Source: Eledone cirrhosa
Lineage: Eukaryota
Length of the DNA stretch: 64,000 nt
Assembly (NCBI GenBank): GCA_964016885.1
Contig: OZ024741.1
Coordinates: 142,848,001-142,912,000 of the forward strand
Reading direction: 5' to 3'
Each line of letters starts with the position of its first letter. Position 1 is the first letter of the stretch. This document shows, piece by piece, positions 4,123 through 23,875 of this stretch. A program made the position numbers and the translations under genes. The notes below the pieces were generated by a model that was not told the origin of the DNA, searched no databases, and saw nothing but the letters and a program-made list of their open reading frames with translations.

Positions 4123-4300
4123 TACACATACAACTCAAAACATACACAGCCACACATACAATAACATCCATATCTACACATGCATGCATACATATCTACC
4201 TAGTTGATGTGTAAATTCCAATGAGAGAGTCTTGTGTCTATGTTAGAAACCGACTCTCTCTCTATTGGTAAAACTTTGTGAAATTATAAAATCAGAAGAA
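4123..4300 (+). mobile_element. isolated 3'UTR of the Dong/R4-type element
   Basis: near-identical to 10681-10858, followed by (CATA)n. Confidence 0.85.
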
Positions 4301-4340
4301 CATACATACATACATACATACATACATACATACATACATA

Positions 4341-4755
4341 CATGGTGGCTGCCAACTCGTTTTCGAGTACGGCCACTACTTTATATCCATGTAGGAGAAC
4401 CCCTACCGATGCGCTAAACAAGTGTGAATTTTTTGTCCAGCCAGCGACTTGAAAACTCTGGTACAAACACTACACCTGTGACAATTATTGACACATAGTG
4501 CTGGGCCCATGGCACCACGTGACGACAAGTGCAGAGAAATCTCCAGATATAAAGCAATGCCTGTGCCGTGAAGCTTTTATAGTGAGCAAAGGCACTGCAC
4601 AAAGCCAGTCCCACTCTCTTAACCAAGATGATATTTACCAAAAAGAAGAACAAGTCAACATCATTGGATACCGTCAGGGTTGCAGGTGTTATATCAGAGT
4701 TTTCCTTCTCCTAGAATTCTGCCTTGACAAAGGCTAAGGGGTCATCTCTCCCGGA
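4341..4755 (-). mobile_element. ~415-bp RTE-related non-autonomous retroposon, copy 1
   Basis: minus-strand head has AGCCTT..AGGCA..CTAGGAGAAGGAAAACTCTGA (RTE 5'UTR-like); 3' hairpin then (TATG)n tail; repeated at 4820 and inverted at 7520. Confidence 0.65.
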
Positions 4756-4819
4756 TATATACATACATACATACATACATACATACATACATACATACAT
4801 ACACATATATATATACATA

Positions 4820-5235
4820 CATGGTGGCTGCCAACTCGTTTTCGAGTACGGCCACCACTTTATATCCATGTAGGAGAACCCCTACCGATGCGCTGAACAA
4901 GTGTGACTTTTTAGTCCAGCCAGCGACTTGAAAACTCTGGTACAAACACTATACTTGTGACAATTACCGACACATAGTGCTGGGCCCATGGTACCATGTG
5001 ATGACAAGTGCAGAGAGATCTCCAGATATAAAGCAATGCCTGTGCCGTGAAGCTTTTATAGTGAGCAAAGGCACTGTACAAAGCCAGTCCCACTCTCTTA
5101 ACCAAGATGATATTTACCAAAAAGAAGAACAAGTCAACATCATTGGATACCGTCAGAGTTGTAGGTGTTATATCAGAGTTTTCCTTCTCCTAGAATTCTG
5201 CCTTGACAAAGGCTAAGGGGTCATCTCTCCCGGAA
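4820..5235 (-). mobile_element. ~415-bp RTE-related retroposon, copy 2 (tandem)
   Basis: high identity to 4341-4755. Confidence 0.7.
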
Positions 5236-5236
5236 G

Positions 5237-7471
<2,235 letters not shown>

Positions 7472-11895: not shown

Positions 11896-12151
11896 TGCAT
11901 ACATACATTCATTCATTCATACATATAAATATGTATGTGTAATATAGAAAGATCAAGAAAATGGGAGTAATAATCAGCCTAAAATCCTTGTCATATAAGG
12001 AAATAAAAAACTATGGCGTTCTAACGATGTCACGTGATAGGACGTGATCGTCTGTAGTTTTGTCATTGTAACGTTCTTCTTTTCTCACTTTCTTTTTTTA
12101 CTTCTTTCTGTCTTTCTTTCGTACTTTCCCTCTTTCTTCACTTCTTTTACT

Positions 12152-13747
12152 TTGGCTGGAGTATCACGGCCCCTCTCAACGTTTGGTATCTGGATGATGC
12201 TACATTGGGCGGGCCCGTACGGACGGTCTGCCAAAACCTTCAATCGGTGATTCCTGCCTTGGCGGGAATCGGCCTCCAGGTCAACTCGGCCAAGTCGGAG
12301 GTGATGAACGTCAGCCTCGATGCTGCGAGCTGTGCAGCCTCCGTCTTGGACGTGCGGTCCATTCTCCGCCAGGTTCAGGTGACCCCCAAAGAGGATGTCC
12401 TCATCCTCGGGTTACCGAAACACCCGCCGGCTATCCGCTCCATCATCAGGTCCAAGCTTCAACAGCTCCAGACTCTCACGAGCCGACTGGGCTTGATTGA
12501 CGGCCACCCAGCTCTCTTTCTGCTGAGGAACTGCTTCGCCATGCCGAAGCTCCTCTATACACTCCGCAGCGCTCCATGCTACACCCAGGCATCTCTCCTC
12601 GCTGACCTCGATACTTGTATCCGAGCAGCAGCCGAGGGGATATGCAACGTCAAGTTTGACGACATAGGGTGGCAACAGGCCACTTTACCGGTCAGGTATG
12701 GCGGCCTAGGCCTCCGGTCCCCAATCTCACTAGCTTTGCCGGCGTAACTTTCGTCGGTAACCTCGTGCCGCGTCCTCGTCAGCAGGGTTCTTCAAAACAC
12801 AACAGAACCCTCTATGTTCAGAGAACGTGAGGCCGTCTGTGAGACGTGGGACCGGCTGGGACTTAGCCCAGTAGACGTCCCTCCTCCTTCTCCCCCTGTT
12901 GACGTCAAGTCCCTCCAACTCACTTGGGATGCCATCCAGTGCAGCCTGGCCTCAGATAGGCTCACGCGCCAACTCGACCAGCTCCGCCTTGCTTGTTTTC
13001 GTGCGGCCTCCAAACCCCACAGTGGTGTCTGGCTCCATGCTCTGCCCTCCTTCTCCACTGGCACCTAGCTAGACAACCATAGCCTGCGAATCGGCGTTTC
13101 CCTGAGGCTCGGCCTCCGGATCTGCCAGCCACACCAATGTCGCTGCGGTTCCACCGTGGACTCTTTCGGCCTCCACCCGCTTTCCTGTCGCCCCAGTGCC
13201 GGCCGCATTCCACGCCATACTGCCCTCAACGAGGTCATTAAGCATGGCTTGGACGCTGCAGGCTTCCCTTCCCAGCTTGAGCCGGTGGGCTGGATCGAGG
13301 GGACGGCAAAAGGCCAGATGGCATGACCATCTTCCCGTTCCGCGGTGGCAAACCCCTCGTCTGGGATGCCACTTGCACCGACACTTTCTGCAGCCGCAAC
13401 CTGGTGCAGTCTGCGACTGACCCAGGTTCTGCTGCACGCCGTGCTGAGGGGGCCAAACACCTCAAATACCGGTCGTTCTCCGACAGGTTTGCGGTCGTTC
13501 CCCTGGCAGTGGAAACTGCTGGTGTCCTCGGTCCCAGGGCTACCTCCTTACTCACCACCATAGGCGCTGAGCTGGCCAGCCGCAGGTGTCAGCCCCGCGA
13601 GTTGGAGTGGCTTTTCCAGCGCGTCTCCCTTGCCGTCCTTCGGGGAAACGCCTTCTCCATTCTGTCCGCCGAGGCTGTGGGTGGGCCCCATCGAGTACCA
13701 ATACATTAGTTAAATACCATTCTTTCATCTGATACAATACAATATTA
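12152..13747 (+). mobile_element. CRE-clade RLE non-LTR retrotransposon, 5'-truncated
   Basis: WYLDD, LPVRYGGLGLRS, CRCG..VD..GLH.LSC, RH..LN, RPDG..PF..GKPLVWDATC, PLAVET.G; stops/frameshifts; pyrimidine (TTTC)-like flanks. Confidence 0.8.
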
Positions 13748-13767
13748 CTTTCTTTCTGCCTGTCTAT

Positions 13768-13860
13768 CTGTATGTAAAATCCCCGGCATGTCTTTGTATT
13801 GTCCCCTTTTCTTGTTGCGCCCTTGTGGCTAATAAAGAAATCTATCTATCTATCTATCTA
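13768..13860 (+). mobile_element. terminal ~75 bp of Tx1 3'UTR plus (TATC)n
   Basis: matches 23803-23870. Confidence 0.8.
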
Positions 13861-14725
13861 TAGAGGGCTGGTACTCAGCAGGTGTGACGACGCCCTCGGA
13901 GAAGCCCTAGACATGGAGGAAGACGAACTGGCCAGCCTGTTCGGTAGGACATTCAGCCCGGGTCTTATGGACAACTTCCAGAAGTCCCTGGCCTGGCAGT
14001 GCTACCGTGGGGCTCTACCCGTTCGAGAAAAGCTCTACAGACACGGGCGCCCGGGTAGGGACCCCACCAAAAAGATCTGTCCCAGATGCGTGTGCGACGA
14101 GGAAACCGTTGCACACGTATTGGTACACTGCTCGGGCGTAGCCGATCTGTGGGGCTATGTCGAACGACTGCTGTCACGGGTGGGACCGATCCGGTTGACC
14201 ACCGATGCCATTGTAACGATTAAGCCCCCCCCCCCTTCAAAAATGAAGGAGAAGCGGTGTTTCTGTGCGTGAAAGAGGTTGTATGGTGGACGCGTCTAAA
14301 AGGACTGAGGTCAGGCACCTTTCTCTCTGGCCAACAACTGATCCGTTTCTTCCGATATCATTTCGGAAGAAGTATCAGGATAGAGAGAGAGGTGCTGCAC
14401 CCCAGTCGTTTTTATGAAAGGTGGGTGAAAGTGGTGAGAATGGCCCGTGTGAATGGGCCTTCTCTCTACATCAGCCTGTAGATGGAAAAGATGAAGGAAC
14501 GAGGGAGCACCTTCTCTCTGTGCTCCTGAGGAGAAGGGTTGCACACTTTTTTCGGGTGTGTGTGTGACCTCCCAAAACGCCTCCTCCCTATTGAGGACTT
14601 TATTGTTAATTTTATATTTGTTATTTGTTTTATATTTGTTATTTGTTTTCTTTACTCGCCTTTTTGTGTAAACTCCCCCCTTGTATTTGTCCCCTTCTTT
14701 TGCGCCCTCGTGGCAATAAATAGAA

Positions 14726-14797
<72 letters not shown>
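13861..14797 (+). mobile_element. 5'-truncated Tx1 3' fragment with (TATC)n tail
   Basis: MDNFQKSLAWQCYRGALPVR, CPRC..ETVAH..C, 3'UTR with AATAAA. Confidence 0.9.
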
Positions 14798-15382
14798 GTG
14801 GGGCTATGTAGAACAACTATTGTCGCGGTTGGGACCAATCCGGTTGACCACCGAGTTCATTGTCATGATCAAACCGCCACCCTCCTTCAAAAACGAAGGA
14901 GAGGCGGTTTTCCTTTGTGTGATAGCTATGGCGAAAGAGGTTGTATGGTGGACAAGGTTGAAAGGGCTGAGGTCAGACACCTTTCTCTCCGGCCAACAAC
15001 TGATTCTTTTTTTCAAATACCACTTTGGAAGAAGAATCAGGATGGAGAGAGAGGTGCTGTACCCCAGCAAGTTTTATGAAAGGTGGGTGAAAGTGGCGAG
15101 AATGGCCCGAGTGAATGGGCCTTCTCTCTATATCAGCCTGTAGGTTGAGGAAAAGGAGGAGGAGAGGAAAGGAGTACAAGCTCTTCGTACTCCTGGAGAT
15201 GAGGGTTGCACATTTTTTTCGGGGGTCTGTGTTACCCATATAAACTGTCTCCCTCTATTGGGGAAAATCGACTAACTTTTAAATTCCATCTGTGATAACA
15301 TTTTACACGTTTTTATTGTATGTAAACTTCCCCCTTTGTATTTGTCCCCTTCTTTTGTGCCCCTGTGGCTAATAAAGAAATA

Positions 15383-15435
<53 letters not shown>

Positions 15436-16018
15436 GTGGGGCTATGTAGAACAACTATTGTCGCGGTTGGGACCAATCCGGTTGACCACCGAGTTCATTG
15501 TCATGATCAAACCGCCACCCTCCTTCAAAAACGAAGGAGAGGCGGTTTTCCTTTGTGTGATAGCTATGGCGAAAGAGGTTGTATGGTGGACAAGGTTGAA
15601 AGGGCTGAGGTCAGACACCTTTCTCTCCGGCCAACAACTGATTCTTTTTTTCAAATACCACTTTGGAAGAAGAATCAGGATGGAGAGAGAGGTGCTGTAC
15701 CCCAGCAAGTTTTATGAAAGGTGGGTGAAAGTGGCGAGAATGGCCCGAGTGAATGGGCCTTCTCTCTATATCAGCCTGTAGGTTGAGGAAAAGGAGGAGG
15801 AGAGGAAAGGAGTACAAGCTCTTCGTACTCCTGGAGATGAGGGTTGCACATTTTTTTCGGGGGTCTGTGTTACCCATATAAACTGTCTCCCTCTATTGGG
15901 GAAAATCGACTAACTTTTAAATTCCATCTGTGATAACATTTTACACGTTTTTATTGTATGTAAACTTCCCCCTTTGTATTTGTCCCCTTCTTTTGTGCCC
16001 CTGTGGCTAATAAAGAAA

Positions 16019-16090
<72 letters not shown>

Positions 16091-16685
16091 GTGGGGCTAT
16101 GTAGAACAACTATTGTCGCGGTTGGGACCAATCCGGTTGACCACCGAGTTCATTGTCATGATCAAACCGCCACCCTCCTTCAAAAACGAAGGAGAGGCGG
16201 TTTTCCTTTGTGTGATAGCTATGGCGAAAGAGGTTGTATGGTGGACAAGGTTGAAAGGGCTGAGGTCAGATACCTTTCTCTCCGGCCAACAACTGATTCT
16301 TTTTTTCAAATACCACTTTGGAAGAAGAATCAGGATGGAGAGAGAGGTGCTGTACCCCAGCAAGTTTTATGAAAGGTGGGTGAAAGTGGCGAGAATGGCC
16401 CGAGTGAATGGGCCTTCTCTCTATATCAGCCTGTAGGTTGAGGAAAAGAAGGAGGAGAGGAAAGGAGTACAAGCTCTTCGTACTCCTGGAGATGAGGGTT
16501 GCACATTTTTTTCGGGGGTCTGTGTTACCCATATAAACTGTCTCCCTCTATTGGGGAAAATCGACTAACTTTTAAATTCCATCTGTGATAACATTTTACA
16601 CGTTTTTATTGTATGTAAACTTCCCCCTTTGTATTTGTCCCCTTCTTTTGTGCCCCTGTGGCTAATAAAGAAATATAAAAAAATA

Positions 16686-16730
<45 letters not shown>

Positions 16731-17924
16731 GTGGGGCTATGTAGAACAACTATTGTCGCGGTTGGGACCAATCCGGTTGACCACCGAGTTCATTGTCATG
16801 ATCAAACCGCCACCCTCCTTCAAAAACGAAGGAGAGGCGGTTTTCCTTTGTGTGATAGCTATGGCGAAAGAGGTTGTATGGTGGACAAGGTTGAAAGGGC
16901 TGAGGTCAGATACCTTTCTCTCCGGCCAACAACTGATTCTTTTTTTCAAATACCACTTTGGAAGAAGAATCAGGATGGAGAGAGAGGTGCTGTACCCCAG
17001 CAAGTTTTATGAAAGGTGGGTGAAAGTGGCGAGAATGGCCCGAGTGAATGGGCCTTCTCTCTATATCAGCCTGTAGGTTGAGGAAAAGGAGGAGGAGAGG
17101 AAAGGAGTACAAGCTCTTCGTACTCCTGGAGATGAGGGTTGCACATTTTTTTCGGGGGTCTGTGTTACCCATATAAACTGTCTCCCTCTATTGGGGAAAA
17201 TCGACTAACTTTTAAATTCCATCTGTGATAACATTTTACACGTTTTTATTGTATGTAAACTTCCCCCTTTGTATTTGTCCCCTTCTTTTGTGCCCCTGTG
17301 GCTAATAAAGAAATATATCTATCTATCTGTGGGGCTATGTAGAACAACTATTGTCGCGGTTGGGACCAATCCGGTTGACCACCGAGTTCATTGTCATGAT
17401 CAAACCGCCACCCTCCTTCAAAAACGAAGGAGAGGCGGTTTTCCTTTGTGTGATAGCTATGGCGAAAGAGGTTGTATGGTGGACAAGGTTGAAAGGGCTG
17501 AGGTCAGATACCTTTCTCTCCGGCCAACAACTGATTCTTTTTTTCAAATACCACTTTGGAAGAAGAATCAGGATGGAGAGAGAGGTGCTGTACCCCAACA
17601 AGTTTTATGAAAGGTGGGTGAAAGTGGCGAGAATGGCCCGAGTGAATGGGCCTTCTCTCTATATCAGCCTGTAGGTTGAGGAAAAGGAAGAGGAGAGGAA
17701 AGGAGTACAAACTCTTCGTACTCCTGGAGATGAGGGTTGCACATTTTTTCGGGGGTATGTGTTACCCATATAAACTGTCTCCCCCTATTGGGAAAAATCG
17801 ACTAATTTTTAAATTGCATTTGTGATAATATTTTACACGTTTTTATTGTATGTAAACTTCCCCTTTGTATTTGTCCTATTCTTTTGTGCCCCTATGGCTA
17901 ATAAAGAAAAAATATCTATCTATC
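14798..17924 (+). repeat. tandem array of five near-identical Tx1 3'-end units (starts 14798, 15436, 16091, 16731, 17329)
   Basis: the same 107-aa ORF2 C-terminus recurs five times; periods 638, 655, 640, 598 bp differ only in tail length. Confidence 0.97.
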
Positions 17925-17934
17925 TTTCTTTCTG

Positions 17935-20900
17935 TCTGACGCGTGGAACATCGCCGGTATGCTTTTTTGTTAATTTCTATACAAAAAACCGAACTAATTG
18001 TTTGAAAAAACATAACATTTTGTAGATTAACCCCCAGGCTGAATTGTCAGCTGGGTGGCAATCTTATTTTTCGCCCCCAAAGGGGCGAAAATTTAATTTG
18101 AAATTAATTTGAAAACTTTAAAAATGTTTAATATTTTGCCATCAGCTATGGCAAGCGTTCAAGGAACGCTAGCGAACGTTGAAGAAGGAAAAAGAAAAGA
18201 AATAGACTTTAACGTTGCTAAAAATTCTGCCTGTATCGAGGTAGTTAACAACAAAGCTTTGTGTAACGAAAGTGAAGTAGACAACACAAACAAAATTGAA
18301 TCGCACAGTGAACCACAGTATACAACACACCAAAATCAACAGAAAAAACAATTGACACAACTACAAACGGAAAACCCGACAACCACAACAACAACAACAA
18401 CAACAAAATAACTTATACAGAAACAGTCACAAATCATAATAATAACGTTACTTCTAACTCCGCATGTATTGGCGTCACCTTGGAAACCAATATGAACAAC
18501 AAAAATAAAAACAAGATCGAACCACACACAGTACAACAGACGTAAAAAACAACAGAAAATAAAACCATTGACACAACTACAAACGGAAAACCCGACAACC
18601 ACAACAACAATAACAACAACAACAACAACAACAACACCAAAAAACTTTTGTGCAAACAGTCACCAAGACAAGATTTCACGGATCTCGATATCTCCAATGC
18701 GAAACAGATGCTCTCTGAAGCAAAGGAGTTTCTGACTTTCGGTGAAAACGGGGGATTTCAGATAAACTCAACCCCAGAAATTCGTCTGGAAACATTTCGA
18801 AGGATAATCACCTTCAGAATTGTTTCAAATGAAACAAAAAAACCAGCATTCCTCAGTCAAGGGGAAATTGAGGCAACCTTAATATATTGCCAGACATTGA
18901 CTTTATGCAGAGGGCCAAACAGTACGGGAGTATTTCGGTACTCCTCAAAAGCGAGGCCCTTGCACAAAGATATTCAGTGACGCCAATACTGTCACAAAAA
19001 TACACCTTTTTCCCTACATACCTGGGAAAAAGGACACAAAAAATTAGAGTTTCAAACATACCACCAAATATTAATATTTGGTGGATATTGGCAGGATTTT
19101 TAGAGGAGAGAAAAGACACTATTCCCTCCATCAAAAAGTCCACCAGACACACCTGGTCTGGTACAAATTTGGAGATTCTGGTGCAAATGAGCCCGGAAAG
19201 AATCTCCAAAATACCAGAAAAAGTGATGGTGGACAACAACAGCCACATAAACATTGTAGTTGAGGGACGAAAACCACATTGCTTTCGTTGCAATAGCACC
19301 ACACACCTAAAGGCCTCCTGCCCTTTACAAACACGCTCAACCAAAACAATACAAAAGAAAACACTTACCAACACCAACACCAAAGCAACCACCACCACCA
19401 CAAGTACAACGACTGACGAAACGGGCAACCACACCAAAACAAACAGACACTCAACCAACAATAACAGAAAAAACAGAGAACACCCCTGAAGAACACAGCC
19501 CCACTGCATCAAACACTACCACAAACACACACACCGAAACACCACCATCAGACAACATACCCCTACCCCACACACCTGACGATGATTATTCATCGACGGT
19601 TGAAGTTGCTTCTCCTTCTTTAAGTAAAGAAGAGGGAGAACCGCGGAAATCTAAAAAACAAAAAAAAGAGACATCACAAAACCCCCAAAACTCCAATCAC
19701 CAACACACAACCACAGACACAAACAACAACACAAACAACACCACAGTCAAACATCCACCTACCAGCAAAACCAACACCAACACCACCCCAAACACAAGCA
19801 CCCAACGTAAAAAGAAAACTCCCGGACGAACAACAAATTAAAACAACACAACAAAAAACACAAACAACAATACGCATACATCAACACAAACAACAAGAGT
19901 TTGATGGAGGTCATCTCCCAAAACCCCAAGGTGGAGACGGAGGACAAAACTTTCGTCAAAGCAGAATCGTCTCCACACCTTAAACTTATAAGGGTTTCTA
20001 TGGAGACCTATAGTGACCTAAAAAATAAATTTTCATAGGACGTGGGTAACCCCTGCTAGAAACCCATCAACCGCGTCCTGTTAAAATGTTTCCCCACCCA
20101 ACCCAACACCCCATCCAGCACCCAAATGGAGATTGAACAACCCGATCTCCAGGTAACGAAATGGTAAGTGCACCTTTTCGTCCTTTTTCTCCAATTTTTC
20201 TTCACCAACATGGCTAGTTTACGAGTTGGAAGCGTGAATATGCGTGGCCTAGGGATGCCCTGGAAGCAGGGCCAACTTTTAAACGACCTTAGGTCACACA
20301 GTATGGATGTGATAACCATCACCGAGTCCAGGATCCACAACAGGCAGCAAGTAACCCCCATCTTCGACGACTTTGAGATCTACGCATCTCTCTGTCAGCC
20401 AGGAGGTGGAGGGGGAGTTGCTGTCATGTTTCGGAAGAATCTGGACGTCGAAGTACAGCAAGTACACTTGGACCCGGATGGTAGACTGATAGTTCTAGAC
20501 GTGAACAGTATTGGAGGTGGAGCCTTCAGACTGGTGGCCGTTTATGCCCCGACCGGGCAATCGCAATCACGGCCAGACTTCTTTAAGCGTCTAGAGTCTT
20601 TTCTGGGAACGTCTCGCTCCTTACTTTTAGTGGGGGACTGGAATGGTATCCTAGATGCACGATGGGACTATGTGGGAGCATGTCCCAGTAGAGGGAGGTG
20701 CAACAGCCTCAAAACTTTAATCGACCAAGGTAAGTATCGGCCGATAGGTATCGACTGGATTTCCCGACTGCACCATAGTGGACGTGGGCAAACCGTAGCG
20801 GGACATCTAGATCGTATTTAGATAGGTTCTTCATTAGAGAGAGGGACAAGGAGATGTTAAGCAGTCCACGAATGCACATGGTTGCCTATTCAGATCACAA

Positions 20901-23875
20901 ATTAGTCGTCTGCTTAGTCAACCGTGATAGAACACATAGACAGGGACCCGGATACTGGAAGCTGAACGTGTCGTTGCCGGCACGTAAAGCTTACAGTGAA
21001 CAGATAAGTAGACTAGTCAAGCAACAGTTAACGGGAGCCATCGTCAACAATAGATGGTGGTGCTTTCTCAAGAAAGCAATTAGAATAGAATCGATAGGGT
21101 ATAGAAGAGAGTTAGCCTTAGAGAAAAACAGAATAGAAAGAGAACTAGTAGCCAAGGTAGAGGAGGCACTTAGAAGTGGCAACGCGGCTAGAGTGTTAGC
21201 GTCGAGAACGGCACTGGACCAGTTCTTCGATGCGAAACACGAAGGCTGCGTGGTCAGAAGCAAAACACGTGCTCTAGGAAACGAAGGAGCGAAAGCTGTC
21301 AGCTGGGCCCGAGTGGCGGAGGCAAAAAGTGGCAACAAGTCCACGATTCGGTCTTTGAAAGACCAAAACGGACGCGTGCTACTTGACCCCAAGCAAATGT
21401 GCGTTGCCTTTTAGCAGCACTTTGCGCGACTGTTTGAGTAGAACGACGGTGAGCCGAACGGGGCAATGGACATTAGTTCATACCTCGACGGCCTGCCGCG
21501 TCTCTCGAACACGGACGCCGAGTTCTGCGAAAGACCGGTCACGGACACTGAGATACGGGACGCTCTGGGCCGCTGCGGGAAACGCAAGTCACCCGGTCTA
21601 GATGGTCTACCCTACGAATTTTACATAGGCATGCCGGACTTGTTCTCTGGCGTCCTCGAAGCCGTCTACTGCAATTGGCAGCAGAATGGGAGAATTCCCA
21701 GTTCTGCAGGCAAGGGCGAAGTAACGCGGATCAGGAAAGACGAGAACGAGGGGGACGAAATTAACAACTTCAGGCCCATATGCTCAATACAGAGTTAAAG
21801 ATTTTGGCCAAGGTGCTAGCGACGAGGTTGGCGCTTTTCCTCGAGAACCTAGTAGTTTGCAATCTAGTAGTGTGCAATCCCGACCAGGTCCATACACGAC
21901 AACCTCTACCTCATGCGATACATCATAGGGAGGGTGGGCAGTAAACCCGGCTTCGGTGGGGCTCTGATCAATTTGGATCAGTCTAAGGCATTCGATAGGG
22001 TCGACCATCGATACTTGGAAGCGGTTTTCAAGGCGGCCGGTTTCGGTCCCGTTTTCAGAGGCTGGATCGAGGCGATGCACACCAGCATCTGCTTGAGGGT
22101 CAAGGTGAACGGCTACCTATCGGAGCCATTCGCAATCACGCGTTCCATTCGACAGGGGTGCCCTCTCTCCTCCATTCTGTATGTATTGACTTTAGAGCCA
22201 CTACTGCGGAAATTGGAGCTGTTGCAGGGTATCCCTCTAGAACCGGGACTGCGCAAAACGGCGTCGGCTTATGCCGACGACGTGACGGTAATGGTGTCGA
22301 GCACCTCGGAAATCGGGGTAATCGGCAACTTACTGAAAGAATACGAAACGCTGACGGGGGCAAAACTAAACCCGGACAAGTCTGTCGGTTTGCAACTCGG
22401 TACGTGGAGAGGCAAACCGATGACGTCCGACAGCGTCGTTGGACGCTGGACGGACGGACCGGTGAAATTGCTCGGGGTCTGGTTCGGTCCAGACCTCCAG
22501 GTGGAGAAACGAGGTCACGGCCAAGGTGTTTGCGCTCACCCAGAAGTGGGCAGAGTGCAAACTGTCCTTGAAAGGACGAGCGGAGGTGGCGAACACTTTC
22601 ATAGCGTCCGTCATCTACTACCGCTTGACTGTCGTGCCTTGTCCCCGTGAACACCTCGCCAAGATGGAACGCATGCTCTTCCAGTTTCTGTGGAAGAAGC
22701 AGGCTCCGCTGGTGGGGAGATCCGTCTGCTGTCAGCACCCTTCCAACGGAGGGCTGGAAATGCCGTGTCTGATGATGCCAAACATGCGCTGGAGCTGCGG
22801 CATCTCCAGGTATTCCTCACCGACCCCCAACCGGTGTGGGCACCGTTTGTGAGACAGGCTTTCCCACAGCTCGTCTCGCTGACGGAGCTGCAGTCCTGGG
22901 TCAAGAAAAGACCGAAAACGATGGGCGCCTGGCACATTGAATGCGCTCAGGCGCTCACAGTCCTCTGGCAAGCGGACACAGCAATCAGCGGAGACTCCAC
23001 TTCGACATTCTATAGAAGGATTGTACGTTACAAGGGCGACGACGTGCTCGGAGAGACTCTAGGCGTCGAAGACAACGAACTCACCAGTCTGTTTGGTAGG
23101 ACTTTCCGCCCGGGACCTATGGACAACTTCCAGAGGTCCCTGGTGTGGCAGTGCTACCGAGGAGCTCTACCGGTTCGTGACAAGATCTACAGGCACGGAC
23201 GCCCCGGCAGGGATCCTTCCAAGAGGGCGTGTCCAAGATGCGCGCAGAACATTGAAACAGTCCTGCACGCAATTCTACACTGCACGGGCGTAACCGACCT
23301 GTGGAACTATGCAGAACAACTGCTGTCGCGTATGGGACAAATCCAGTTGACTACCGAGTCCATAGTAAGGATCAAACCGCCAACCTCTTTCAAAGACGAA
23401 AGAGAGGCGGATTTCCTCTGTACAGTGGCTATGATGAAAGAAGTTATATGGTGGACGAGGTTGAGAGGACTGAGGACAGATGCCTTTCTCTCCGGACAAC
23501 AATTGATTCCCTTCTTTAAGTATCACTTTAGAAGAAGAATCAGAGTGGAGAGAGGCACTGTACACTAGTAAATTTACTGAAAGGTGGGTGAATGAAGCGA
23601 AAATAGCCCGAGTTATTGGGCCTTCTCTGTTTATAAGCCTGTAGTTTAAAGAGAGCAAAAGGAAGAAAGGAGCACTTGCACAACACGCTCCTGAAGTTGA
23701 GGGTTGTTCTATCGACGGGGTATTAAACAACCCATTTGTGGTGCTTCCCCCTATTGGGGATTTCGATTGTTGTAATTGTTTGTTTTTATATTTTTTACAC
23801 GACTGTATGTAAAATCCCCGGCATGTCTTTGTATTGTCCCCTTTTCTTGTGACTAATAAAGAAATATATCTATCG
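17935..23875 (+). mobile_element. near full-length Tx1 LINE (5'UTR, ORF1, ORF2, 3'UTR), decayed
   Basis: ORF1 ~18124-20167 with CFRCNSTTHLKASC knuckle and Thr/Asn-rich tracts; ORF2 from ATG 20210 to ~23645 with APE, RT (YADD), zinc finger; tail TATCTATC. Confidence 0.92.

What the first reader, a model, noticed from the sequence alone, without database searches (positions are those of the whole stretch)
14798..17924. Five Tx1 3'-end units with one 5' end but different poly(A)/(TATC)n tails: a possible self-feeding mini-retroposon array
Seen: five ~585-bp cores all start at GTGGGGCTATGTAGAAC. After AATAAAGAAATAT, unit 2 carries ~34 A, unit 3 carries 7 A, and units 1 and 4 carry none; each then has a different length of (TATC)n. 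Units 1-2 read GACACC and units 3-5 read GATACC, and unit 5 has several private substitutions. Inference: plain tandem duplication does not readily explain poly(A) appearing just after the polyadenylation signal in only some units. Repeated reverse transcription of a short LINE-derived RNA into the previous copy's tail, or template jumping in one event, would explain it. That would be a nascent SINE/satellite being built by target-primed reverse transcription.
Basis: partly seen in the sequence, partly recalled or inferred. Interest (0 to 1): 0.72.

Follow-up and report, generated by a model that had tools for sequence, protein, structure and literature searches.

The report
Retrotransposon array copying its neighbour's start
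Five head-to-tail fragments of a jumping gene share one start point; the last is an old copy and the first four join that copy's front part to the back part of the young family, a pattern repeated at many other sites in this genome, likely because new copies finish inserting by copying the neighbour already there.

Summary
The array is real: five 580-bp 3' ends of a (TATC)n-associated Tx1 LINE (6,025 exact 3' ends genome-wide). It is not a nascent SINE. Its private 5' haplotype occurs only in these five units, and family 5' ends are scattered. Unit 5 is an old-subfamily resident. Units 1-4 are chimeras: they carry the resident's 5' junction and private SNPs, but young-subfamily 3' halves, with two different switch intervals. 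The pattern recurs: 9 of 44 other adjacent pairs share a 5' junction, and in 11 of 11 informative loci the upstream unit has the new 3' end. Likely mechanism: reverse transcription primes in the TATC just upstream of a resident copy; the cDNA then switches onto the resident and copies its 5' part. The A-runs are likely slips onto the RNA poly(A). They are rare (9 dispersed), so units 2 and 3 likely share one origin through DNA exchange. The ingredients are known (L1 SDSA-type chimeras, R1 tandem insertion). This scan has reported the same pattern on other DNA, in this genome and three others.

The parts
13857..14720 (+). 5'-truncated 3' fragment of a sister Tx1 subfamily; left neighbour of the array
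   Evidence: 79.5% to a full-length family copy; zf-RVT hit
14726..14797 (+). (ATCT)18 target microsatellite before unit 1
14798..15383 (+). Unit 1: chimera. Resident's 5' junction and private SNPs (14815, 14829, 14857); young-family sequence from a switch between unit positions 60 and 181. Holds the last ~115 codons of ORF2 (stop at 15141-15143) and the 3' UTR with AATAAA
   Evidence: 7 of 7 young alleles
15384..15435 (+). Tail/spacer 1: (TATC)n, no A-run
15436..16021 (+). Unit 2: identical to unit 1 over the 580-bp core
16022..16055 (+). A34 run between AAATAT and TATATC; likely copied RNA poly(A)
   Evidence: same structure at 8 dispersed loci
16056..16090 (+). Tail/spacer 2: TATATC(TATC)n
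16091..16676 (+). Unit 3: chimera, switch between unit positions 181 and 270; one private change (359); likely a unit-4-5'/unit-2-3' recombinant
   Evidence: the recombinant reading is inference
16677..16683 (+). A7 run; likely same origin as the A34 run
   Evidence: rate argument
16684..16730 (+). Tail/spacer 3: TATATC(TATC)n
16731..17316 (+). Unit 4: chimera, switch between unit positions 181 and 270; young 3' half
17317..17328 (+). Short tail/spacer 4
17329..17924 (+). Unit 5: old-subfamily resident copy, inferred donor of the shared 5' end; 0 of 7 young alleles and 7 further rare changes in 270-568
17937..23870 (+). Near full-length, broken copy of a sister Tx1 subfamily; right neighbour
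   Evidence: 80.7% over 20094-23706

Best explanation
The array is an old 5'-truncated Tx1 copy (unit 5) preceded by four chimeric units that carry its 5' part and young-family 3' ends, likely made when new copies primed in the TATC repeat just upstream and their cDNA then switched onto the neighbouring copy to finish. Steps. (1) Shown: the family sits in TATC repeats and stacks head to tail. Inferred: its endonuclease nicks there and the RNA primes by pairing at the body/poly(A) border, which gives the usual AAATA-TATC tail without poly(A). (2) Inferred: the partly made cDNA leaves the RNA, anneals to the intact top strand of the resident copy a few hundred bases away, and is extended along it through the resident's 5' junction back to the nick (SDSA-like). 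The result is a long target-site duplication made of microsatellite plus resident 5' part. (3) Shown: two different switch intervals (60-181 in units 1-2; 181-270 in units 3-4). Inferred: at least two such events. (4) Inferred: one event slipped onto the poly(A), giving the A-run, and at least one unequal exchange or conversion between units copied that tail. Unit 3 fits unit-4 5' plus unit-2 3', with the run shortened or mis-assembled.
For: Units 1-4 have 7 of 7 young alleles and 0-1 rare changes in 181-580; unit 5 has 0 of 7 and 7 rare changes; three private SNPs in the first 60 bp are shared by all five (chance of that clustering about 0.001). The private haplotype occurs only here. Screen for adjacent pairs at three anchors (48 matches = this array plus 44 other loci after dropping one duplicate-contig row): 9 of 44 repeat the downstream unit's 5' junction upstream (mechanical test, 1.5 kb look-back); independent truncation would match at well under 1% per pair (9 loci at this junction against 6,025 3' ends). 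Polarity: the upstream unit has the new 3' end and the last unit is the older or different one in this array, L055, L057, L102, L108, L115, L119, L127, L133, L026 and L085/86, that is 11 of 11 informative loci, none reversed (sign test 0.001). Shared private 5' changes occur in L055, L057 and L108. Cross-subfamily chimeras: L127 identical for 66 bp then about 74%; L026 identical for 43 bp then 86%. The full-length pair L085/86 has 2 differences in the first 3,750 bp and 46 in the rest. Irregular spacer letters are duplicated and the young tail abuts them (L057 TATCTGTGTATA, L108 TATCTATTTATTTGTTTAT, L127 TATCTAACT). Two loci join the captured piece out of register (L095 56 to 314; L115 32 bp then -28), as expected of a long duplication rather than conversion. 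Precedent: L1 cDNA pairing with nearby homologous DNA, SDSA-like (passages).
Against: No intermediate was observed; all steps are read from end products in one assembly. 35 of 44 adjacent pairs have independent 5' ends, so capture is a minority outcome. Two small identical dimers (L122, L137) and an ABAB block (L042) fit plain DNA duplication as well, so the number of retrotransposition events in this array (two to four) is open. The two adjacent A-runs need a DNA-level exchange that capture alone does not give. In L102, L119 and L133 no private SNP shows whose 5' end it is. L111 and L095 are uninformative for polarity, and L019 is mixed. A lone chimera without a resident (L013) shows that other routes, or later collapse, exist.
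Confidence: 0.72

Rival explanations
1. Ordinary double insertion, then recombination: a young copy with its own 5' end inserted upstream of the resident, and later gene conversion or unequal crossover gave it the resident's 5' junction and expanded the array.
For: Double insertion with different 5' ends is the commonest state (35 of 44 pairs). Dimers expanding by unequal exchange are established (PMC5932611 passages). Some DNA exchange is needed for the two A-runs anyway.
Against: Conversion should run both ways, but the shared 5' part belongs to the last unit wherever it can be told (this array, L055, L057, L108, L127, L026). A single unequal crossover leaves the young copy's own 5' end as the first unit; none is present here or in L055 and L057. 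Out-of-register joins (L095, L115) and switches between 74-86% similar subfamilies fit conversion poorly.
Confidence: 0.14
2. Duplicate first, renew later: the old copy was duplicated between its flanking TATC tracts, then new cDNAs primed in the inner tails replaced the 3' halves of upstream units by annealing to them.
For: A lone chimera exists (L013: 6 rare changes in 26-142, none after, 7 of 7 young alleles). TATC tracts flank each unit.
Against: It predicts unreplaced old-old dimers and sometimes a renewed last unit. No pair with an old-type upstream tail shared a 5' end (0 of 12, against 7 of 18 with young tails; p 0.024), and the last unit was the older one in 11 of 11 informative loci.
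Confidence: 0.07
3. One reading: a short RNA with a fixed 5' end (nascent SINE), or template jumping in one event, is repeatedly reverse-transcribed into the array.
For: 8 dispersed copies share the exact junction. A-runs follow the polyadenylation signal. Copying of array-derived RNA back into the array cannot be excluded for units 1-3.
Against: The private haplotype occurs nowhere else. The 8 copies are of mixed subfamily state. Junctions nearby are scattered. Each other array has its own breakpoint (-1167, -420, -260, -30, -27, 81, 90, 97, 265, 283). Unit 5 is old and last.
Confidence: 0.03
4. Pure DNA tandem duplication with slippage, or an assembly or polishing artefact.
For: Homopolymer and microsatellite lengths are error-prone; no long read spanning the array was seen.
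Against: It cannot give 7 in-phase subfamily alleles that split unit 5 from units 1-4. A3-only tails are rarer than long runs (1 against 8). The pattern is polar at many loci and crosses subfamilies. The private haplotype exists in a public run at raised depth.
Confidence: 0.04

Closest known systems
Chimeric L1 insertions formed by an SDSA-like switch of the cDNA onto genomic DNA (Gilbert et al. 2005, not held, seen only as cited; passages read in bioRxiv 10.1101/2024.08.27.596794 and PMC8087252)
   Same: 3' part from an active element, 5' part copied from homologous or nearby genomic DNA, which is thereby duplicated.
   Different: There these are occasional events of an untargeted element (22 templated insertions, typically under 250 bp, in the tumour study). 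Here targeting places the nick next to a homologous resident, capture is seen in 9 of 44 adjacent pairs, spans about 30 bp to 3.75 kb, and repeats at one site to build ordered arrays.
Tandem R1 arrays in Drosophila 28S rDNA (PMC2718515, section 13 and passages) and TE dimers by double insertion (PMC5932611, passages)
   Same: New copies insert into the target left at the 5' end of a resident copy; dimers can then expand by unequal exchange.
   Different: Those units are independent insertions separated by a short TSD, and distinct 5' truncations are taken as the mark of double insertion. Here the 5' truncation is shared although the 3' ends are independent.
Microsatellite-targeting Tx1 families Kibi (TC)n, Koshi (TTC)n and crocodilian (TTCC/TTTC)n families; tandem SINEU-3 (PMC4494074, passages)
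   Same: Tx1-type ORF2, microsatellite target, tandem insertions.
   Different: Target is (TATC)n ('tatc' has 0 occurrences in that paper's main text). No neighbour-derived 5' ends in the passages read. The units here have no RNA-gene head and no fixed 5' end.
Template slippage at initiation in eel UnaL2 (PMC1636434, passages)
   Same: Re-priming at the RNA 3' end leaves repeated terminal sequence.
   Different: There slippage is on a terminal UGUAA repeat. Here it is inferred to be a rare slip onto poly(A), in about 0.15% of 3' ends.

Membership tests
Tx1-clade non-LTR retrotransposon | ORF2 with APE endonuclease, RT and C-terminal zinc-binding domain | tested here: met
   Exo_endo_phos, RVT_1 and zf-RVT in sister copies in the window; the unit's reading frame ends the RT-bearing ORF of full-length copy L085
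Tx1-clade non-LTR retrotransposon | RT closer to Tx1 than to L1 or R2 | tested here: met
   Xenopus Tx1 ORF2 204 bits, 35% identity against human L1 ORF2p 111 and R2 52-67 bits; similarity scores from two different searches, no tree built
Tx1-clade non-LTR retrotransposon | Target-sequence preference | tested here: met
   128 of 151 distinct 3' ends in fetched loci read AAATATATC, AAACATATC or AAATCTATC; 5' flanks are TATC-rich and short TSDs begin with TATC. Endonuclease specificity itself was not tested
SINE / non-autonomous retroposon family | Many dispersed copies with one defined 5' end descending from a short master | tested here: not met
   Private haplotype only in the array; same-junction copies are of mixed subfamily state; junctions scattered
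SINE / non-autonomous retroposon family | Promoter-bearing head unrelated to the LINE body | tested here: not met
   The unit aligns over its whole length to the 3' end of a full-length copy (5254-5835, 96-99%)
SINE / non-autonomous retroposon family | Discrete short transcript | not testable with these tools
   Needs RACE or long RNA reads
SDSA-type chimeric LINE insertion | 3' part from active element, 5' part from a pre-existing genomic copy | tested here: met
SDSA-type chimeric LINE insertion | Donor segment duplicated, not lost | tested here: met
   Resident retained downstream in this array and in the paired loci; L013 is an exception
SDSA-type chimeric LINE insertion | Formed in one step, pre-insertion allele known | not testable with these tools
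   One assembly; no empty or intermediate alleles seen
Satellite array by unequal exchange from one unit | All units descend from a single monomer over their whole length | tested here: not met
   5' and 3' halves have different ancestry

The most novel reading that the evidence does not exclude
For target-specific Tx1 elements, finishing an insertion by copying the resident neighbour is a regular pathway built into retrotransposition (7 of 18 pairs with young tails here), needing no second-strand nick. It ratchets polar arrays that look like satellites or SINEs, and it can graft new 3' ends onto old 5' parts, even across subfamilies and up to full length, so it is also a route of LINE subfamily recombination.
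Probability: 0.5. Interest if true: 0.65.

Novelty: new variant of a known kind. Interest (0 to 1): 0.5.

Why it matters
How LINE insertions complete their 5' junction is still poorly understood. These arrays record the switch point in SNPs at many loci of one genome, which makes a homology-guided finish countable and testable. It also changes an inference rule: a shared 5' truncation in tandem LINE fragments is usually read as DNA duplication or as a SINE, but here it goes with independent new 3' ends. That offers a direct route from retrotransposition to satellite seeds and to mosaic LINE subfamilies. The ingredients are known and the scan has seen the pattern elsewhere, so the value is in frequency, polarity and generality rather than in a new class of element.

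Tried and rejected
Nascent SINE: rejected. DNA-slippage origin of the A-runs: disfavoured. Expression: no RNA holder listed; this says nothing either way. Read check: only Logan contigs were available; no listed piece spans a unit, so unit number, A34/A7 lengths and the unit-3 change at 359 stay unverified (no contig of X2 or X3 was laid over that base, which proves nothing). An A12 loose end after the AAATATA motif in X3 cannot be assigned to this locus. No tree of units was built because the informative sites are few and are listed directly. Tandem Repeats Finder missed the array because its period limit is 500. The ESM Atlas gave only generic RT names. Literature searches for this combination gave no describing paper: listings, with passages read where cited; 0 papers. 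The library lacks most subscription papers, including Gilbert 2005 and Kojima and Fujiwara 2004; no supplements were read, and those of PMC4494074 (target figures) may bear on whether TATC targets or such tandems are described. No earlier notes exist near the window.

Full report
Observation. The five units, their shared start, the tails and the C/T split are as described. Each unit is the last ~115 codons of ORF2 plus the 3' UTR of a LINE and aligns over its whole length, at 96-99%, to the 3' end of a 5.83-kb full-length copy elsewhere. The array lies in a head-to-tail pile of sister-subfamily copies from 13769 to 23870.

The family. The window is G000:C2:142848001-142912000 in a 3.0-Gb assembly; earlier scan notes call the animal probably an octopod, which I did not test. 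The ORF2 of copy L085 scores 204 bits against Xenopus Tx1 ORF2 and 111 against human L1 ORF2p. There are 6,025 exact matches to a 26-nt 3'-end motif, and the best-scoring copies are 99% identical to unit 1. Of 151 distinct 3' ends in fetched loci, 74 read AAATATATC, 43 AAACATATC and 11 AAATCTATC, and short TSDs begin with TATC. Copies fall into an older and a younger state at seven linked positions.

Not a SINE. Eight dispersed copies have the same 5' junction, but all lack the array's SNPs and range from 0 to 7 young alleles. The junction lies on a 2-nt microhomology with TATCT. In the first 100 of 209 rows of a gapped search, junctions within 30 nt are scattered over many positions. The array-private haplotype has five matches in the genome, all in the array.

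Anatomy. All five units share changes at positions 18, 32 and 60 that are absent from 43 of 43 other copies (in a larger set of about 70 copies one carries the change at 60). Units 3-5 also share 181T. Unit 5 carries the old alleles at 7 of 7 positions plus 7 rare changes in 270-568. Units 1-4 carry the young alleles at 7 of 7 and no rare change after 181 except one in unit 3. So unit 5 is an old resident, and units 1-4 are its 5' part joined to young-family 3' parts, with switches at 60-181 (units 1, 2) and 181-270 (units 3, 4).

Generality. Three pattern searches for a family 3' end followed by TATC and a downstream copy gave 48 matches: three are this array, one is a duplicate-contig row that I dropped, and 44 are other loci. 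In 9 of 44 the downstream unit's junction recurs upstream (look-back 1.5 kb); 35 have independent 5' ends. Among the 26 non-array loci, four more show a repeated junction (L019, L021/L057, L026, L042). Where age can be read, the upstream unit has the new 3' end and the last unit is the older or different one in 11 of 11 loci, with none reversed. L111 and L095 are uninformative, L019 is mixed, and L122 and L137 are identical dimers. The cases include cross-subfamily joins (L127, L026), out-of-register joins (L095, L115) and a full-length pair (L085/86). Irregular letters of the spacer are duplicated, and the young tail starts right at them.

Mechanism (inferred). The endonuclease nicks the bottom strand in TATC just upstream of a resident. 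The cDNA grows from the side that holds the resident, so it is homologous to the resident's intact top strand a few hundred bases away. If it anneals there and is extended, it copies the resident's 5' part and the spacer back to the nick, in any TATC register. This gives chimera-then-resident order, a shared junction, new tails and variable spacers. Double insertion followed by conversion does not predict the one-way donor, the missing independent first unit or the out-of-register joins. Duplication followed by replacement predicts old-old dimers, which were not found (0 of 12 pairs with old-type upstream tails).

The A-runs. Nine dispersed 3' ends have five or more A after AAATAT; one belongs to a sister subfamily, and in the other eight the run (5-31 A, one interrupted) is followed by TATATC-like letters. 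A wider pattern found one A3 tail and one other variant. This fits RNA ending GAAAUAU-poly(A): normal priming at the border skips the poly(A), and a rare slip after the first few bases copies it (inference; slippage precedent in UnaL2). At 9 in 6,025, two of four units by independent events has p about 1e-5, so units 2 and 3 likely share one tail. One unequal exchange between a (181C, A-run) unit and a (181T, no run) unit yields units 2, 3, 4, 5 in the observed order. The array therefore needs at least two capture events and probably one DNA exchange.

Reads. Only contigs of public runs were available. Run X3 holds the private 5' haplotype exactly at depth 73.8 against 5-17.5 for one-off junctions, weakly in line with several copies. 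Nothing spans a unit.

Comparison. SDSA-like chimeric L1s (passages; the primary paper is not held), tandem R1 insertion at the 5' side of a resident (section 13 and passages), dimers expanding by unequal exchange (passages) and microsatellite-targeting Tx1 with tandem SINEU-3 (passages) supply every ingredient. I found no paper on their combination in searches, in a library that lacks most subscription papers. An octopus repeat survey lists active L1-Tx1 families, and the passages read say nothing on targets or arrays. I recorded my reading before opening earlier scan notes; four of them report the same neighbour-copying pattern, one in an ATT-associated family of this genome and three in other genomes. 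They are unchecked and are not counted as evidence.

Verdict. Real feature; new variant of a known kind; best explanation 0.72; interest 0.5.

Noticed in passing
window 4300-5302: Two ~479-bp units (93% alike) separated by (ACAT)n tracts, near RT-bearing ORFs of another LINE type; may be the same neighbour-copying pattern in an (ACAT)n-associated family.
   Followed up: no
window 12058-13860: Broken element with an RT-like frame and a restriction-like-endonuclease-type motif (RPDG..WDAT, label recalled; no Pfam hit), followed at 13769-13860 by a short 3' end of a sister Tx1 subfamily; start of a head-to-tail pile running to 23870.
   Followed up: partly
L013 (G000:C378:31711): Lone chimera with the same junction as the array: 6 rare changes in unit 26-142, none after, all young alleles, no resident downstream; 3'-end replacement or collapse of a dimer.
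   Followed up: partly
L042:883-3319: ABAB block: identical old A units; the first B is young and the last B has private changes. One capture may span a whole neighbouring unit.
   Followed up: partly
L085:2928 to L086:4645: Two full-length 5.83-kb copies in tandem, near identical for 3.75 kb and then about 2% different: a full-length chimera. The upstream copy's ORF2 is split.
   Followed up: yes
L080:2306-2371: A ~13-bp 3'-end insertion between duplicated copies of the microsatellite plus the first 7 bases of the resident: ordinary short TSD overlapping the resident's start.
   Followed up: no
L023:1378-1400: Short inverted piece of the element's 3' end at a junction; possibly twin priming.
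   Followed up: no
30 loci: No shared 5' end among 12 pairs with old-type upstream tails, against 7 of 18 with young tails: such tandems may collapse with time, or capture is a trait of the young subfamily.
   Followed up: partly
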